A DNA stretch of 64,000 nucleotides. Origin: Spirochaetota bacterium. GTDB lineage: Bacteria > Spirochaetota > UBA4802 > UBA5550. Each line of letters starts with the position of its first letter. The stretch's first letter is position 1. Made by a program: the position numbers and the translations under genes. The notes below the pieces were generated by a model. It had not been told where the DNA came from. It searched no databases and worked only from the letters and a program-made list of their open reading frames with translations. This document shows positions 40,524 through 46,343 of this stretch, one piece after another. The stretch lies in assembly GCA_963664815.2 (NCBI GenBank), contig CAXXHB010000003.1:3520001-3584000 (forward strand), written 5' to 3'.

Positions 40524-42094
40524 CTGTTGATCCATTTCCACTCGTTGATGTTTGAAGTTAATGGCCATCCATGTCCATGCGGTTCCATGCGGGATTTGCC
40601 TATATCAAGCCTATCACTTACAAAATATGTATGAGTGAGATTAACAAGCCATACCCACGGCGCATCTCCCTTCATTGCAAAACCGGTTTTACCGTCCCAC
40701 TGAGCAAGCTTCCAGTATTTAATTGAATCTTCAAATGAAGAGGCGTTCATTGCCATGTCAAAATACTTATCAACTTTTTCATTACTGTAATAACCGCAGT
40801 TATTATATTCAATGCCGGCCTGGCTGCTGTGAAAGAGGCCATACATCTCAAGAGGGTTATGGCTTCCCCAGCCGAAGAGTACAGCCACAGCGTGGTCCAT
40901 TGTGTCTATCTCATCCCAGGTTTTGCCCTCAATGTTTATTTTAATGCCGATCTTTTTAGCCTGATCAGCCACCGCAACGGCAAGATTCTGCCTGATGCTG
41001 TCTGACGATTCGTAGACAAGCTTAAATTCAGCTTTCAGCCCTTTTCTTTCAAGAATGCCATCCTTGTCGCTGTCTCCCCATCCGTCGCTTCTGAGTACCT
41101 TTTTTGCCTCTTCAATTTTGCCCGATTCAATCCTCCCTGAAACTTCATCCCAGGGAAGTCCGTCGACTACCCCGTAAGCTGGTGTCCCGTAGCCTTCAAG
41201 GATACCTTTTACAAGAATATTCCGGTCTATACCTAAATTAAGGGCTTTTCTTATTGAAAGGACTGATGTTACATTGTTGCCGATTGGGTACCCCTTATCG
41301 GTTTTCTTTCCTGTATCAGGGACGCATGGGAGCATAATCCCCCTGTTGTCAACGCTCTTAACGGGATGAAGTGTCATACCGTTTACTTTCTGAATCGCAA
41401 GCGACTGTGGTACCGCGACTATGTCAGCCTTCCCGGACTTCGCGGCTGCAAACGCGGCGTCTTCGCTTAAAAATAAAAATACTACGCTTTTTATTGCAGG
41501 TTTCTTTCCATAATAATAAGGATTCTCCTCTATTATCATCTGCTCCCCCTCCTGCAGGCTTACCATTTTGTAAAGACCTGAACCTATGGGGTTTCTGCTG
41601 TACTTATCATTATAGAGATGTTCGGGGACAATACCAAGCGTTATGAGATGGTCAATGAACGTGATATCAGGTTTTTTCAGTCGTAATTCAAGATCGTAGT
41701 CGCCAATCTTTACAGCCTTCTCCATTGAAGTCATATCAACCCTGGCCCCGGATGACGCAGCTTTATTAAATGTAAAAACAACATCATTTGCTGTCAGAGG
41801 TTTTCCATCGGAAAACTTTGCGTCGCGTCTGATGCTTATTTTCCATACACGTTTATTATCCGAAAGAGAATAAACAGTGGCCAGATCCTTTACTATTTTC
41901 AGGTCGTTATCCCTTTTAAGTATCGTGCTGTGAAACAGTGAATTACCGTACCTTCCCCAGCCTGTAACAGGATCATATCCCTCCCTGTTATCTTCAGCGA
42001 TAGCAATCACAAGCTGATCCTTTGATCTTTGCGAACAGCCTACTGCACATAAAAACATTAAAATACAGAGTAAACATACCTTTGCCTTAGACAT
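40520..42094 (-). CDS. ABC substrate-binding lipoprotein, family 5 (nickel/peptide)
   Basis: Lipobox AVGC, FSDGKPLTA.DV.FT, PIG.G, C-terminal EPHGHGW. Confidence 0.9.
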   Translation of the reverse strand: MSKAKVCLLCILMFLCAVGCSQRSKDQLVIAIAEDNREGYDPVTGWGRYGNSLFHSTILKRDNDLKIVKDLATVYSLSDNKRVWKISIRRDAKFSDGKPLTANDVVFTFNKAASSGARVDMTSMEKAVKIGDYDLELRLKKPDITFIDHLITLGIVPEHLYNDKYSRNPIGSGLYKMVSLQEGEQMIIEENPYYYGKKPAIKSVVFLFLSEDAAFAAAKSGKADIVAVPQSLAIQKVNGMTLHPVKSVDNRGIMLPCVPDTGKKTDKGYPIGNNVTSVLSIRKALNLGIDRNILVKGILEGYGTPAYGVVDGLPWDEVSGRIESGKIEEAKKVLRSDGWGDSDKDGILERKGLKAEFKLVYESSDSIRQNLAVAVADQAKKIGIKINIEGKTWDEIDTMDHAVAVLFGWGSHNPLEMYGLFHSSQAGIEYNNCGYYSNEKVDKYFDMAMNASSFEDSIKYWKLAQWDGKTGFAMKGDAPWVWLVNLTHTYFVSDRLDIGKSRMEPHGHGWPLTSNINEWKWINR

Positions 42095-42651
42095 TGAACT
42101 CCCCCCGTGTTATTATTGTGATACAAAAATCAGTGTGTTATTTTTTATTTTATAATATTATCATGTCAATATAAATATCATTATTGTATACATCATATGC
42201 GATTATAAAACATAATGGATATGACATGATACCCCGTTTAAATTTTTCGATTTATCCCCGGAAATGATAAAAGAACGCCGCTTTTAACTTACAATATTGA
42301 ATTCATTTTTATGCATATTGATGGATTATACTTTGAGATTATGGCTTGATTACTCTCGGAGAGATTTTTAAAACAATATTTTCTGTCTATTTATGTTGTA
42401 CCTCTCTTCATATCTATGAACAGGATAATTACGGTATAAGTAAAAACGGCTGAATCCGAAACAGTACCCGCATCCATATTCCTGTCAGCCCGAAAAATTC
42501 TGAAAATATAACAATCTGTCTGGTTAAAGTAAGAATTATTGATCTCCTCGGTTTACTGAAGACCTGAAAATATCCATAAGCGCAAATATATAAACTCGCG
42601 TAAGACACTATTAATAGAAAAATACGCATTTTTCGAAATGTTCAATACATT

Positions 42652-42744
42652 GCCATTTCAAACGACGTTGCTCAGTAGAAGTGTGAGAAATCTAAAATTT
42701 AATGTAAAAAACCGATTTCTCAGTCGCTATCGCTTCTTCGAAAT
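42652..42744. repeat. inverted pair of REP-like units (GYCATTTC...GAGAAATC); second unit split by IS110
   Basis: 42652-42693 on +; 42714-42744 on - continues at 43599-43601 on the far side of the IS. Confidence 0.65.
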
Positions 42745-42767
42745 GTACTGTGTTTCAGTACAAGCTT

Positions 42768-43367
42768 TTAGTTTATACTGAAACAATTTGGATCATAACC
42801 TCTATTATATTTAACGATAGCAAAAACCTGACGGATCAGTTTGTTTGCCACTGCAATAAGCGCGACTTTTTATCCTTACCTTTCTCCAGCATCCGTCTAT
42901 ATAATCTAATACAATCCGAATTATACTTGGATGCTGATAATGCTGCCAGACGATTCTTGTTTTGAATTTTTTGTTTGCTGTAAATCATCAATCGTATTCA
43001 AAAAAGCCTTTTTTTCTGCCGATTTTCTGAAATTTCTTTATACGGAAACGGTTTCTCTTAGAATCCACTTTATCGGTTTTAGCACGCATCATTTTCATAT
43101 CGGCATAACGCTTCACAATCAATGGATTTACAATAGACACGATATATCCCTTCTTGTTTTAAAAAACTCAGCGAGTCGCTGGTGATACACTCCTGCTGCT
43201 TCCATCGTTAAAATATACTCCTCGATATTACCTTTCCGGCTTTTTCTGTATACCTGTTCAAAGCCCATCTTCGAATTTTCAACCTGGAAATGTTCAATCT
43301 TATTTCCATCAAAAAAAGTCACATCAACTGTTTTCTTCGATACATCAAATCCGATTGACATTTTCAT
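42768..43367 (-). pseudogene. IS110 DEDD recombinase pseudogene
   Basis: IGFDVSK, MEAAG.Y, NP, KTDKVDS and C-terminal K.ALIAVANKL.R in different frames; central region missing. Confidence 0.88.
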
Positions 43368-43409
43368 AGAACCCCCCATATAGTGTTGTTACGCATGATT
43401 GAGGGTATG

Positions 43410-43585
43410 ATCTCTTCTCTTGCATCGCATGATACAGGCTTTATGCCTAATGTACTGCTCAGAGTAGAGATGGAAGACGGTGGGATTAACATTTCGAACG
43501 GTCTTTTGACCTATAACAAAAATAATCTTTTCCCCAGTCTTTATACCCCTCTTTGCATTTCGGTTTTGAGGGACTTCTCCTGAAA
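43410..43585 (-). ncRNA. IS110 bridge RNA (target- and donor-binding loops); boundaries approximate
   Basis: Two internal loops closed by GGTC-AAAA-GACC and AGGC-ATAAA-GCCT hairpins; loop sequences match the element ends and insertion site. Confidence 0.75.
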
Positions 43586-43926
43586 CCCAACATACGATGA
43601 CATATTAATGCACTAAATCAATCATAAAGAGCTATCGTTTAAAAAACAAATCACAGTAAATTAAATACAGGAGTGTGGGGGGGGGATACTGCTGCATAAT
43701 ATTTTAATGCTGTTAATATACGGGAGAACATCCTGCATGCAGAGGATCCTCCTGTATATAACAAACATGGAACATAATAAATCAGGCTTTCTGTTCCTCT
43801 TTCACCTCGAAACCGGGAACTGTACCCCATATTGCCGGTTTTAACAGTAAGAATTAAAAAAGATCATTAACCATAACATTTTAACAATCCCTTCTTTCCA
43901 GAAAATTGTTAAAATGTTGATTCCTG

Positions 43927-44187
43927 TCAATGTTTATGGTCATGTTTCTCATTTTCATGAGCCGGATGAACATGTTCATGCTGTCCATGCTCTCCATCAT
44001 GAGTATGACTATGCATATTTTCACTCACATCATGTGAATGAGGATGTTTGTGTTCATGTTCATGTTCATGTTCATGTTCATGTTCATGACCGTGTGCATG
44101 TTTTTCCCCGTTATGCTCGTGTTCATGTTCATGTTCGTGTTTATGCTTGTGATCATGAAGATGTTTATGTTCGTGGTCGCCCTTCAT
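43927..44187 (-). CDS. histidine-rich protein (34 of 86 residues His), putative Ni/Co/Zn storage or chaperone
   Basis: AGGAGG RBS before ATG 44187; (HE)n repeats encoded by CATGAA tandems. Confidence 0.85.
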   Translation of the reverse strand: MKGDHEHKHLHDHKHKHEHEHEHEHNGEKHAHGHEHEHEHEHEHEHKHPHSHDVSENMHSHTHDGEHGQHEHVHPAHENEKHDHKH

Positions 44188-44336
44188 AACATTCCTCCTG
44201 CTTTTTTTTAAATTTATTACTGATATAATTACCGGCATCCGTATTAATCCGTATACTGCTTTAAATAAAGATACTTCTCAATTATAAAAAGTCAATATAT
44301 AATACTGATATATTTTTAAAACATGTCAATACCAGA

Positions 44337-46343
44337 CTAAAACTTTATCCTTCCATCAATGGGAAGAACAATTGTAAAAACCGCACCGCATCCGGGGGAG
44401 CTTGATACTTCAATTGTTCCATGATGCTGTTCAATAATACCATATATTACCGCCAGGCCAAGCCCGGTACCCTTGCCGGCCTCTTTTGTTGTGAAGAATG
44501 GATCAAATATTTTATTTATAATATCCTCATTTATTCCCATACCGGTATCTTCCACGGTAACTATGATATTACGTTCTTCATCATCAAGTTTTGTAGTTAT
44601 GTTAAGATTACCCCCCGACGGCATTGCATGTGCGGCATTCTCTGCAAGATTATTGAAAACAGACCTCATCTGGCTTACATCAATCTCTGTCATCGGTACC
44701 CGGTCGGAAAGGTTTATGTTCATATGAATATTCTGAAATGTCATATGCTTTTCCAGAATAGAAACAGTCTCTCTTATCACATCGTTAATATTGGCAGCTA
44801 TTTTTTCAACGGATGTATTTCTTGCAAAATCGAGGAGTCCCTTGACAATCTTCCGGCATCTCATCGCCTCATTAATTATGACATCAAGATCTTCTTCAAA
44901 ATTACTCCCCTTCATATCCTCTTTCATGATACTTGAATAAGTGAGAACCCCGGTAAGCGGGTTATTGATTTCATGCGCTATCCCTGACGCCATTCGTCCC
45001 AGGGATGCAAGTTTCTCGGACTGAATCATAGCCCTTTTTGCTTTAAGAATCTCCTCATATGATACCGCAAGCTCCGATGCTGTTTTTTTCAGTTTCTCAA
45101 TTGTAAAGGGGAGACACATCTCGTTTTCTGCAAGTCCCTTATGTATTGCAGTAGCATGCTCGATGCAGGTGTCATACCCGCAGGCGCCGCAGTTTAATTC
45201 ATCCTTGAGAGAGTATTTCCCCATACGCATGAGTATTTCCCTGAGCTCCATACTGTTAGGGGATGGGACCCTGTGATCATCTTCACTGAATTTTGCGGAA
45301 AGATCGAGACCCGATAACTCATCAAACACCTGTTTGTATTTATCCTTATCAATCTCCCTGTGCCTTTTCTGTGCAAATGCGCTTACATAGCCCCGCTTTG
45401 TGTAAAGAGGCATATCATGCGACATCCCTGAACCGGAAATACATCCTTCACAGCAGTTGAGTTCAAGTAAAACAGTATTGTGCTTAACTGTTTCATATTC
45501 CTTTATTGCATGAATAAACTGTTTATGCCCGGCCGAAGTAACAATATCCATTGAAAGAAAGTTCTCATGAAGACCCGACGCCTGCAGCAGCCCGCCGCCT
45601 ATCGGATAAAGTGTTCCCCGTCCTCCATGCGGCGGATCAAACTCGGAGCGTTCAACGCTGCCGTGCTCTATCCCCTTCAGATCAAACAGCTCCCTGAGTT
45701 CCCGAAACGTAAGAACCTCATCAATATCACGTTCTATATCCGGTCTTACAGCTTCATCTTTCTTTGCAATACAGGGTCCTATAAATACTGTTTTAAGATT
45801 ATCACCGTAAATTTTATGGACAGCTCTTGCTGCGGCGACCATCGGTGAAACAATAGGCGCAAGATTCTTTACAAGGGACGGATGGTACTTTTCAATATAA
45901 AAAACAATGGCAGGGCATGTGGTGCCGATAAAACTTTTATCCCTGTTGTTTCTGTAAAGCTCCCTGTATTTTTCGGAAACAAGGTCTGCACCGAAAGCCA
46001 CCTCAATTACATAATCAAACCCGAGCTTGCGGAGCATTCCTACAAAGATTTTATAACTGATATTAAAGAACTCGGCGGGAAAACTTGGTGCAACAAGTGC
46101 GACAGTCTTTTCCTTTCCCTCAAGAAAGGTCAAAACGTCATTTTTTGAATTCCGGACGATCTTTGCATTCTGAGAACAGACTTTTACACAGTTCCCGCAG
46201 CCTATGCATCTGTCCGCAATAACCTCAGCCTGCCCTCCCGATATACGTATAGCCTTTGCCGGGCATTCACGTACGCATGAGTAGCACATTTTGCACTGCT
46301 CTTTCAATGTTTTTACAAGGGGTATATCAGTTCTTCCGGTCAT
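44337..46343 (-). CDS. sensory (group C-type) [FeFe]-hydrogenase-like domain fused to histidine kinase
   Basis: 2x4Fe-4S; [28 protein letters not shown]; [10 protein letters not shown]; [22 protein letters not shown]. Confidence 0.9.

What the first reader, a model, noticed from the sequence alone, without database searches (positions are those of the whole stretch)
42743..43598. Readable IS110 bridge RNA with a self-consistent AT-core donor/target code
Seen (minus strand): the rejoined ends give donor ACAGTAC-AT-CGTAT, and the flanks give target ATATGTC-AT-TTCGA. The non-coding left end folds into two internal loops. Donor loop: GCAGTACAT (43450-43458, 8/9 to left donor+core) and TGCGAT (43424-43429, 5/6 to the reverse complement of core+right donor). 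Target loop: TTCGAAATG (43490-43498, 9/9 reverse complement of CATTTCGAA) and TTTTGTTAT (43513-43521, 6/9). Circularisation would create TTGTAC-17 nt-TATGTT, a junction promoter. Established: this is the IS621 bridge-recombination architecture, which uses a CT core. Inference: a natural AT-core variant; the local recombinase is dead, but the 856-bp element keeps both ends and might be mobilised in trans.
Basis: partly seen in the sequence, partly recalled or inferred. Interest (0 to 1): 0.8.

Follow-up and report, generated by a model that had tools for sequence, protein, structure and literature searches.

The report
Decayed IS110 element with readable bridge RNA
This is a dead, internally deleted copy of an RNA-guided (IS110/IS621-type) jumping gene sitting in a genomic repeat, and its guide RNA still spells out its insertion site and its own ends; the reading is correct, but the mechanism was described in 2024.

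Summary
Window 43598..42743 (minus strand) is an IS110-group insertion sequence with a 5' bridge RNA.

- **Boundaries.** Uninterrupted copies of the same REP-like repeat in same-genus genomes read ..GTC-AT-TTCGAAG.. Two of them carry the exact reconstructed target ATATGTC-AT-TTCGA.
- **Relatives.** A covariance model finds the RNA upstream of the recombinase gene in 58 related loci.
- **Structure.** Stems covary: 92.8% paired against 69.2% shuffled.
- **Guide code.** Guides covary with flanks. The right target guide predicts 225 of 288 flank bases (permuted mean 114). The left target guide predicts 179 of 301 (permuted mean 116). No permutation of 10,000 reached either value.
- **Core.** AT is the usual core in this clade, with GT and TT relatives.
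- **Decay.** The recombinase has three frameshifts and has lost about 117 codons, including the catalytic serine.

Not novel: an N-T core fits published IS621 data (PMC11208158). REP targeting, the junction promoter and handshake guides are all published. Trans-mobilisation is unlikely: single copy, no cognate recombinase in this genome, weakened -35, and mutated guide positions. This scan has reported REP-targeting IS110 bridge-RNA elements on other DNA before.

The parts
43599..43605 (-). Left target (LT) ATATGTC. It is the left part of the REP-like unit that the element split.
   Evidence: Uninterrupted REP copies L094 and L096 read ATATGTC-AT-TTCGAAG.
43597..43598 (-). Left copy of the AT core
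   Evidence: The same AT lies between flank and CGTAT in L002, L008 and L009.
43589..43596 (-). Right donor (RD) CGTAT, overlapping the -10 half TATGTT (43594..43589) of the circle-junction promoter
   Evidence: The -10 at this fixed offset matches TATAAT at 4 or more of 6 positions in 43 of 47 loci.
43401..43551 (-). Bridge RNA core: basal stem, target-binding stem-loop, donor-binding stem-loop
   Evidence: Covariance model R1, 164 bits. Stems 92.8% paired, and 28 of 32 pairs show compensatory changes across 48 sequences. Fold z = -3.26.
43513..43521 (-). Left target guide (LTG) UUUUGUU plus core AU. It matches ATATGTC-AT at 6 of 9 positions, or 7 of 9 counting a U-G wobble at position 7. Relatives have C at that position.
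43488..43498 (-). Right target guide UUCGAA, core-binding AU, then handshake GU. Its reverse complement AAC-AT-TTCGAA matches the right flank 6/6. The handshake bases match donor positions 6-7 (AC).
43450..43458 (-). Left donor guide (LDG) GCAGUAC plus core AU. It matches the right end ACAGTAC-AT at 8 of 9 positions. Relatives have A at position 1.
43422..43429 (-). Right donor guide UGCG plus core AU (pairs with AT-CGTA through one G-T wobble), then handshake GC. In the close clade the handshake is GA in 17 of the 18 sequences where my pattern found one.
42988..43379 (-). N-terminal DEDD (RuvC-like) recombinase remnant in two frames. It keeps the D, E, D, D motifs.
   Evidence: Pfam PF01548, E 1e-7 and 4.8e-4. 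tblastn of the full-length relative: aa 1-69 in frame 1, aa 67-103 in frame 3.
42936..42948 (-). Junction of the internal deletion of about 351 nt, at a 13-nt stretch that fits both sides. The loss removes the Tnp domain with the catalytic serine.
   Evidence: A contig of run X5 carries the missing letters. tblastn jumps from about aa 151 to aa 265. The serine aligned to IS621 S241 is residue 241 of the relative.
42768..42869 (-). C-terminal tail of the recombinase (..ALIAVANKLIRQVFAIVKYNRGYDPNCFSIN, then stop), in a third frame
42758..42763 (-). -35 half of the junction promoter. Here it is TTGTAC (3 of 6 to TTGACA). Relatives mostly read TTGACT.
42743..42751 (-). Left donor (LD) ACAGTAC plus the right copy of the AT core
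   Evidence: The same end occurs in L002, L008, L010 and L011.
42682..42742 (-). Right target TTCGAA and the rest of the REP-like palindromic unit (TTCGAAGAAGCGATAGCGACTGAGAAATC..)
   Evidence: Genome searches hit this stretch in same-genus genomes: 23 hits each in G003, G004 and G005, which is all 23 candidates the tool scored per genome, and 10 in G006. The matches begin at 42745, the last base before the core. Copies were read.

Best explanation
An IS110-group insertion sequence (IS621-type bridge recombination) once inserted as a circle into the AT core of a REP-like palindromic repeat. The site was chosen by its own bridge RNA.

- The target-binding loop pairs with both strands of ATATGTC-AT-TTCGAA.
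- The donor-binding loop pairs with the element's joined ends, ACAGTAC-AT-CGTAT.
- Recombination at the shared AT leaves one AT at each junction and no other scar.

The copy then decayed. It has three frameshifts, a 25-nt loss, and an in-frame loss of about 351 nt that removes the serine-bearing Tnp domain. It also has point changes in the -35 box and in three guide or handshake positions. It is now an immobile fossil whose guide code is still legible.

**Shown:** the ends, the scarless insertion into a repeat, RNA structure conservation, guide-flank covariation in the family, and the gene lesions.

**Inferred from IS621 biochemistry:** the circular intermediate, promoter use, base pairing during synapsis, and handshake pairing.
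For: **Empty sites.** I fetched 24 REP copies. 22 were recognised and 18 read GTC-AT-TTCGAA uninterrupted. L094 and L096 carry the exact 7+2+5 target.

**Full-length relative.** L002, from a same-genus genome, has the same ends (CTCTGTC-AT-CGTAT.. and ..ACAGTAC-AT-TGCGAA). Its RTG reads UUCGCA where the window reads UUCGAA, matching its own flank.

**Family.**
- The model finds the RNA directly upstream of the recombinase ORF in the window and in 58 of the 84 other sources searched.
- 28 of 32 stem pairs have compensatory changes. The covariation score is 0.759, against 0.219 or less when partners are slid.
- RTG-predicted bases match the real right flank at 225 of 288 positions in 48 loci (permuted mean 113.8, sd 8.7; 0 of 10,000 reach).
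- LTG matches at 179 of 301 positions in 43 loci (permuted mean 115.9, sd 7.9; 0 of 10,000 reach).
- By my count from that table, 19 distinct RTG hexamers are each matched at 5 or more of 6 positions by their own flank.
- In the GT-core relative L022, LTG, LDG and the core-binding parts of RTG and RDG all switch together.
- The target-loop handshake bases match donor positions 6-7 at 71 of 82 positions, against 41 of 82 for the target.
- The junction -35 matches at 4 or more of 6 in 37 of 48 loci, and the -10 in 43 of 47.

**Protein.**
- PF01548 fragments in the window.
- The relative carries PF01548 plus PF02371 and NF033542 'IS110 family RNA-guided transposase' at 217 bits.
- It aligns to the IS621 structure 8WT6 at E 1.8e-40.

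**Lesions.** tblastn frames. A contig of run X5, roughly 93% identical by my count of its differences, carries the missing 351 and 25 nt and lacks the 1-2-nt indels.
Against: - In the window alone, the LTG (6/9) and RDG (6/7) matches are no better than chance.
- Right- and left-end positions in the family test were set by a regular expression on conserved donor-end motifs. Some loci are visibly mis-bounded and were kept in the counts, for example L025/L026, L028, L038 and L048.
- Relatives share targets by descent, so the permutation figures overstate independence.
- The stem counts were made on an alignment fitted to the model's structure.
- No RNA, circle or excision data exist. The contigs laid showed no joint, and contigs cannot show rare forms.
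- Rfam 15 has no matching family.
Confidence: 0.93

Rival explanations
1. The 856-bp remnant is a still-functional non-autonomous mini-element. Bridge RNA plus both ends would be excised and re-inserted when a cognate recombinase is supplied in trans.
For: - Both ends, the core and the whole RNA fold are retained.
- The genome holds 11 exact unoccupied GTCATTTCGAA sites, against 5 for the backwards control.
- Durrant et al. showed that the IS621 bridge RNA works in trans (PMC11208160, passages read).
- ISPpu9 forms circles from modular end combinations (PMC12288879, passages read).
- Near-identical fuller copies exist elsewhere (run X5).
Against: - Single copy in the genome.
- The element was found in 1 of 60 relatives searched, and there as a full-length copy, not a mini form.
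- There is no cognate recombinase. The two other IS110 genes are 23% identical.
- The -35 is degraded to 3 of 6.
- LDG position 1, LTG position 7 and the donor-loop handshake base differ from the otherwise constant relatives.
Confidence: 0.06
2. The retained left end has been co-opted as a small regulatory RNA unrelated to transposition, which would explain why the RNA part is better preserved than the gene.
For: The RNA region has no indels, while the gene has six. Small RNAs linked to IS110 members are discussed for ISPpu9 (PMC12288879, abstract and passages).
Against: - The integrated state shows no promoter evidence.
- There are no other solo copies in this genome or in 40 relatives.
- At 151 nt the RNA is a small target for indels, so the difference may be chance.
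Confidence: 0.02
3. The complementarities are chance and the left end is plain non-coding DNA of a transposase pseudogene.
For: The LTG and RDG matches in the window alone are at chance level.
Against: - RTG 9/9 is reached by 3 of 5000 shuffles.
- Guide-flank covariation across the family.
- Stem covariation.
- Exact agreement of the boundaries with uninterrupted repeats.
Confidence: 0.01

Closest known systems
IS621 (E. coli) and its bridge RNA; also IS622/ISCro4 (Durrant et al. 2024, PMC11208160; Hiraizumi et al. 2024, PMC11208158; structure 8WT6)
   Same: - The full-length relative's recombinase aligns over residues 5-318 at E 1.8e-40, with the DEDD residues and the Ser-Gly motif in place.
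- The RNA lies in the long left end, with the target loop before the donor loop.
- LTG and LDG have the sense of the top strand. RTG and RDG are complementary to it.
- The core is included in all four guides.
- The core is 2 nt with T at the second position.
- A handshake dinucleotide follows the core-binding bases.
- A sigma-70 promoter is split across the right-end/left-end junction.
- The target is a REP-like repeat.
   Different: - The core is AT instead of CT. The papers already report AT as tolerated by IS621.
- The RTG is 6 nt or longer, where IS621's natural RTG is 4 nt. Durrant et al. note longer RTGs in some orthologues.
- Different target and donor words.
- A different host lineage. 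The record titles of related loci name Leptospirales, Spirochaetales/Spirochaetota and Acidobacteriota MAGs.
- This copy is dead.
ISPpu9 / ISPpu10 of Pseudomonas putida (PMC12288879; bioRxiv 10.64898/2026.03.19.712850, abstract only)
   Same: IS110-family elements that insert at a fixed dinucleotide inside REP sequences and form circles joined at that dinucleotide.
   Different: ISPpu9 uses AG, and its guide-like RNA arrangement differs. No sequence relationship was tested here.
ISEc21, IS110-type seekRNA element (Siddiquee et al. 2024, PMC11187229)
   Same: An upstream non-coding region encodes the guide RNA. Insertion causes no target duplication. Both strands of the target are read.
   Different: Not compared by sequence here. 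The naming differs (seekRNA against bridge RNA).

Membership tests
IS110 family, IS110 group (bridge-RNA elements of IS621 type) | [quoted passage not shown] | tested here: met
   Window fragments score E 1e-7 and 4.8e-4. The full-length relative scores 1.9e-21.
IS110 family, IS110 group (bridge-RNA elements of IS621 type) | C-terminal Tnp domain (PF02371) with the catalytic serine | tested here: not met
   In the window copy only the last ~60 residues survive, and the serine region is deleted. The feature is met in the full-length relative L002 (PF02371 at 5.1e-23; Ser-Gly aligned to IS621 S241-G242). The window copy is therefore a remnant of a member, not a working member.
IS110 family, IS110 group (bridge-RNA elements of IS621 type) | Long left non-coding end encoding an RNA with two internal loops, target loop 5' of donor loop | tested here: met
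   Fold. The covariance model hits the window and 58 of the 84 other sources searched. Stem covariation.
IS110 family, IS110 group (bridge-RNA elements of IS621 type) | LTG/RTG match the flanks and LDG/RDG match the joined ends, each including the core | tested here: met
   Window: RTG 9/9, LDG 8/9, LTG 6/9, RDG 5/6 plus a wobble. Family permutation tests. Coordinated core switches in GT-core relatives.
IS110 family, IS110 group (bridge-RNA elements of IS621 type) | Scarless insertion at a 2-nt core, with no terminal inverted repeats and no further duplication | tested here: met
   The flanks rejoin to the sequence of uninterrupted REP copies with a single AT.
IS110 family, IS110 group (bridge-RNA elements of IS621 type) | Promoter reconstituted across the right-end/left-end junction of the circle | tested here: inconclusive
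   The geometry TTGACx-17-TATxxT is conserved in the family. The window's -35 is only 3 of 6. No transcription data exist.
IS110 family, IS110 group (bridge-RNA elements of IS621 type) | Handshake guides complementary to the partner DNA's positions 6-7 | tested here: met
   Target-loop handshake matches the donor at 71 of 82 positions, against 41 of 82 for the target. The donor-loop handshake GA, complementary to target TC, appears in the close relatives, but the window reads GC.
IS110 family, IS110 group (bridge-RNA elements of IS621 type) | Circular intermediate and RNA-dependent recombination | not testable with these tools
   Only assembled contigs were available and no joints were seen.
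Rfam RNA families | Match to a curated covariance model | tested here: not met
   No plausible hit over 42000-44400 at E up to 10. All 11 listed matches are far below their gathering scores.

The most novel reading that the evidence does not exclude
The remnant is a natural miniature bridge element. Guide RNA plus ends would survive without a gene and could still be moved into the genome's free GTC-AT-TTCGAA sites when a close, intact relative enters the cell. Such relatives exist in a same-genus genome and in a contig from an activated-sludge metagenome run. If so, IS110 elements would have MITE-like dependants that carry their own address.
Probability: 0.06. Interest if true: 0.5.

Novelty: new member of a known kind. 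Interest (0 to 1): 0.22.

Why it matters
It matters little beyond annotation.

- It adds a clade of IS110-group elements from Spirochaetota and Acidobacteriota metagenome bins, with AT, GT or TT cores and a 6-nt right target guide.
- In these elements the published IS621 rules (core inclusion, N-T core, handshake bases, split promoter, REP targeting) can be read directly from sequence.
- It also gives a worked case of how such an element decays.

The intact relatives, not this copy, could serve as further orthologues for recombinase screening.

Tried and rejected
**Searches that found little**
- Rfam search of 42000-44400: nothing credible.
- Search for more copies in the own genome: only the locus itself.
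- Element DNA in 60 relatives: one hit.
- RNA model in 40 relatives: one hit.
- The genome-contig scan gave only 4 loci, one of them the same protein at 100% identity.
- L011, the best metagenomic protein match (67%), lacks the left end. Other DNA replaces it upstream of residue 17, so it gave only a right end.

**Analysis steps that needed rework**
- RNAalifold on the whole left end paired the 5' terminus with the RDG. That shows RD-RDG complementarity in all four sequences but is not the RNA's own fold, so I set the model structure by hand.
- The outer stem of the donor loop aligned in two registers and was left out of the model.
- A first boundary regex printed unusable output and was rewritten.

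**Sequencing runs**
- No RNA holder was listed.
- Contigs of four runs showed no joints, and the parts without cover say nothing.
- In run X3 the element part has word depth 109 against 28 for the right flank. I could not interpret this from contigs.

**Literature**
- I found no paper that names a natural AT-core IS110. One search ('AT core' + 'bridge RNA') gave 0 papers, and searches gave none that state it.
- The supplementary tables of Durrant et al. list thousands of elements and may well include this clade.

**Papers and what I read**

| Paper | Seen |
|---|---|
| PMC11208160 | passages and section 12 |
| PMC11208158 | passages |
| 10.1101/2025.05.14.653916 | passages |
| PMC12288879 | passages |
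| PMC11187229 | passages |
| 10.1101/2025.10.25.684509 | a term search that found nothing |
| all others | search listing or abstract only |

Full report
**What is there**

On the minus strand the sequence reads ..ATATGTC-AT-CGTATGTTGGG.. at 43605..43586 and ..ACACAGTAC-AT-TTCGAAGAAG.. at 42753..42733. Between these lie three things:
- a 219-nt non-coding left end;
- recombinase fragments in three frames;
- a short right end.

Pfam finds the DEDD_Tnp_IS110 domain in two fragments: 43379..43128 (E 1e-7) and 43140..42988 (E 4.8e-4). The C-terminal tail ..ALIAVANKLIRQVFAIVKYNRGYDPNCFSIN stands in another frame.

**Boundaries**

A search of the wider region against relatives showed that the right flank, starting at 42745, is a repeat. 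It gave 23 hits each in three same-genus genomes, which is all 23 candidates the tool scored per genome, and 10 in a fourth.

I fetched 24 copies. My pattern recognised 22, and 18 of those read GTC-AT-TTCGAAG without interruption. The other 4 read CGC-AT-TTCGAAG.

L094 and L096 carry ATATGTC-AT-TTCGAAGAAGCGATAGCGACTGA. That is exactly the window's left flank joined to its right flank through a single AT. The unit is palindromic (GTCATTTCGAA ... TTCGAAATGAC), so it is a REP-like element. The own genome has 11 exact free GTCATTTCGAA words, against 5 for the backwards control.

**Relatives**

The element is single-copy in its genome. One same-genus genome holds a full-length relative, L002, which matches the window at 75% DNA identity over the bridge-RNA region and the start of the recombinase gene.
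- It encodes a 325-aa protein with PF01548 plus PF02371.
- It matches NF033542 'IS110 family RNA-guided transposase' at 217 bits.
- It aligns to the IS621 structure 8WT6 at E 1.8e-40.

Its ends are CTCTGTC-AT-CGTATATT and ACAGTAC-AT-TGCGAA. Its right target guide reads TTCGCAATG where the window reads TTCGAAATG, the change its own flank requires.

Two more genome-bin loci (L008 at 52% identity and L009 at 44%) behave the same way. In L009 the donor end ATAGTAC-AT matches a changed LDG, ATAGTACAT. A metagenome scan added 80 loci.

**RNA**

I built a covariance model from four sequences (154 positions, 32 pairs). On the gene's strand, directly upstream of the recombinase ORF, it hits the window and 58 of the 84 other sources searched.

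I gave 48 of those 85 sources to a second search, chosen as the best plus-strand hits and leaving out L014, L018, L026 and the weaker ones. All 48 matched at E 1e-7 or lower. On that alignment:

| Measure | Observed | Control |
|---|---|---|
| Cells forming standard pairs | 92.8% | 69.2% in shuffles |
| Pairs with compensatory changes | 28 of 32 | - |
| Covariation score | 0.759 | at most 0.219 when partners are slid |

The alignment was fitted to the model's structure, which favours that structure.

The architecture is a basal stem enclosing two stem-loops, each with an internal loop, target loop first.

**Guide code**

I took the loop strands from the model alignment. I set element ends by conserved donor-end motifs plus a -35-like word, without using the target guides.

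| Comparison | Matches | Loci | Permuted mean (sd) | Permutations reaching it |
|---|---|---|---|---|
| Reverse complement of first six RTG bases vs real right flank | 225 of 288 | 48 | 113.8 (8.7) | 0 of 10,000 |
| Seven LTG bases vs left flank | 179 of 301 | 43 | 115.9 (7.9) | 0 of 10,000 |

- Visibly mis-bounded loci were kept in.
- Loci without a regex hit or at contig ends dropped out: 11 of 59 on the right side and 16 of 59 on the left.
- Shared descent inflates these figures. By my count from the table, however, 19 different RTG hexamers are each matched at 5 or more of 6 positions by their own flank.
- A frequent sixth-position A-for-G is a U-G wobble.

In 32 of 58 loci the LTG, RTG and LDG core positions all read AT. 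In L022 the LTG, RTG and LDG core positions all read GT and its junctions have GT. L053/L054 may have a TT core, read by eye from the alignment.

**Handshake and promoter**

The two bases after the core-binding part of the RTG match donor positions 6-7 at 71 of 82 positions. They match the target at 41 of 82. This is the pattern published for IS621 handshake guides (PMC11208158; 10.1101/2025.05.14.653916).

At fixed offsets from the core:
- The -35 matches TTGACA at 4 or more of 6 positions in 37 of 48 loci.
- The -10 matches TATAAT at 4 or more of 6 in 43 of 47.
- L002 would form TTGACT-17-TATATT.
- The window would form only TTGTAC-17-TATGTT.

**Decay**

tblastn of the relative's protein places aa 1-69, 67-103, 265-296 and 292-319 in frames 1, 3, 2 and 1.

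A contig of run X5, from another study, is roughly 93% identical by my count of its differences. Relative to the window it carries:
- 351 extra nt at 42936-42948, where 13 nt fit both sides;
- 25 extra nt after 43056;
- single extra letters after 43008 and 42865.

It lacks 2 nt at 43157 and 1 nt at 42967.

These places coincide with the frame changes. The 351-nt loss removes the serine that aligns with IS621 S241.

The RNA also differs from its relatives at four places:
- LTG position 7 (U for C);
- LDG position 1 (G for A);
- the donor-loop handshake (GC for GA);
- the first pair of the target-loop hairpin.

**Chance in the window alone**

Only the RTG match (3 of 5000 shuffles) and, weakly, the LDG match (209 of 5000) exceed chance. 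The LTG and RDG matches do not.

**Comparison with what is known**

Durrant et al. (PMC11208160) describe every feature seen here:
- the LTG/RTG/LDG/RDG scheme with the core included in each guide;
- REP targets;
- the promoter rebuilt in the circle;
- longer RTGs in some orthologues;
- predicted bridge RNAs in 85.7% of IS110-group elements.

Hiraizumi et al. (PMC11208158) state that the second core base T is almost invariant and the first less so, and that GT, AT and TT cores support IS621 recombination. ISPpu9 uses AG (PMC12288879). The AT core is therefore within the published range.

This scan has already reported REP-targeting IS110 bridge-RNA elements in other genomes. Other first-reader notes on this same stretch say the same things.

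**Verdict**

The element is a dead new member of a known kind, and trans-mobilisation is improbable.

Noticed in passing
window 42650-42745 and 43599-43625; loci L093-L117: A REP-like palindromic repeat (GTCATTTCGAAGAAGCGATAGCGACTGAGAAATC .. AGATTTCTCACA..CGTTCGAAATGAC). It gave 23 hits each in three same-genus genomes, which is all 23 candidates the tool scored per genome, but is scarce in the window's own genome (11 exact 11-mers). A shorter form without the central spacer occurs in G004 and G006.
   Followed up: partly
window 42632-42642 (minus strand): AACATTTCGAA, the exact reverse complement (11/11) of the whole 3' strand of the target-binding loop. It recurs unoccupied about 100 nt beyond the right end, at the start of a second, more diverged repeat unit. 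Its left side does not fit the LTG.
   Followed up: partly
window 43781-43844: A 64-nt stretch is 100% identical to a place on another contig of the same genome (G000:C2:721207-721270). Contigs of runs X1 and X3 branch at exactly these two coordinates. It is an unidentified short repeat.
   Followed up: no
L003 and L004 (own genome, outside the window): Two intact copies of a different IS110-family gene (361 aa). They are 23% identical to the relative of the window's element. Their own guide RNA was not examined.
   Followed up: no
L022, L066, L080; L053/L054: Relatives with non-AT cores: GT in L022 (LTG, RTG and LDG all read GT), GT also read at the junctions of L066 and L080, and possibly TT in L053/L054, read by eye. 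The second base stays T. In L036 and about 15 others the LDG carries one extra C relative to the donor end, a bulge.
   Followed up: partly
L011 1-600: The closest metagenomic protein relative (67%) has lost its left end and first 16 codons. Unrelated coding sequence abuts it at about position 598. The nature of that neighbour was not tested.
   Followed up: no
window 42834-43641 in run X3: The contig covering the element and 43 nt of its left flank has word depth 109, against 28 for the right flank. It continues into unlike sequence below 42834. This is unexplained and cannot be resolved from contigs.
   Followed up: no
window 43927-44238 (minus strand): An ORF of 103 aa made largely of His-Glu/His-Lys repeats lies just upstream of the element. 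Other notes of this scan flag it.
   Followed up: no
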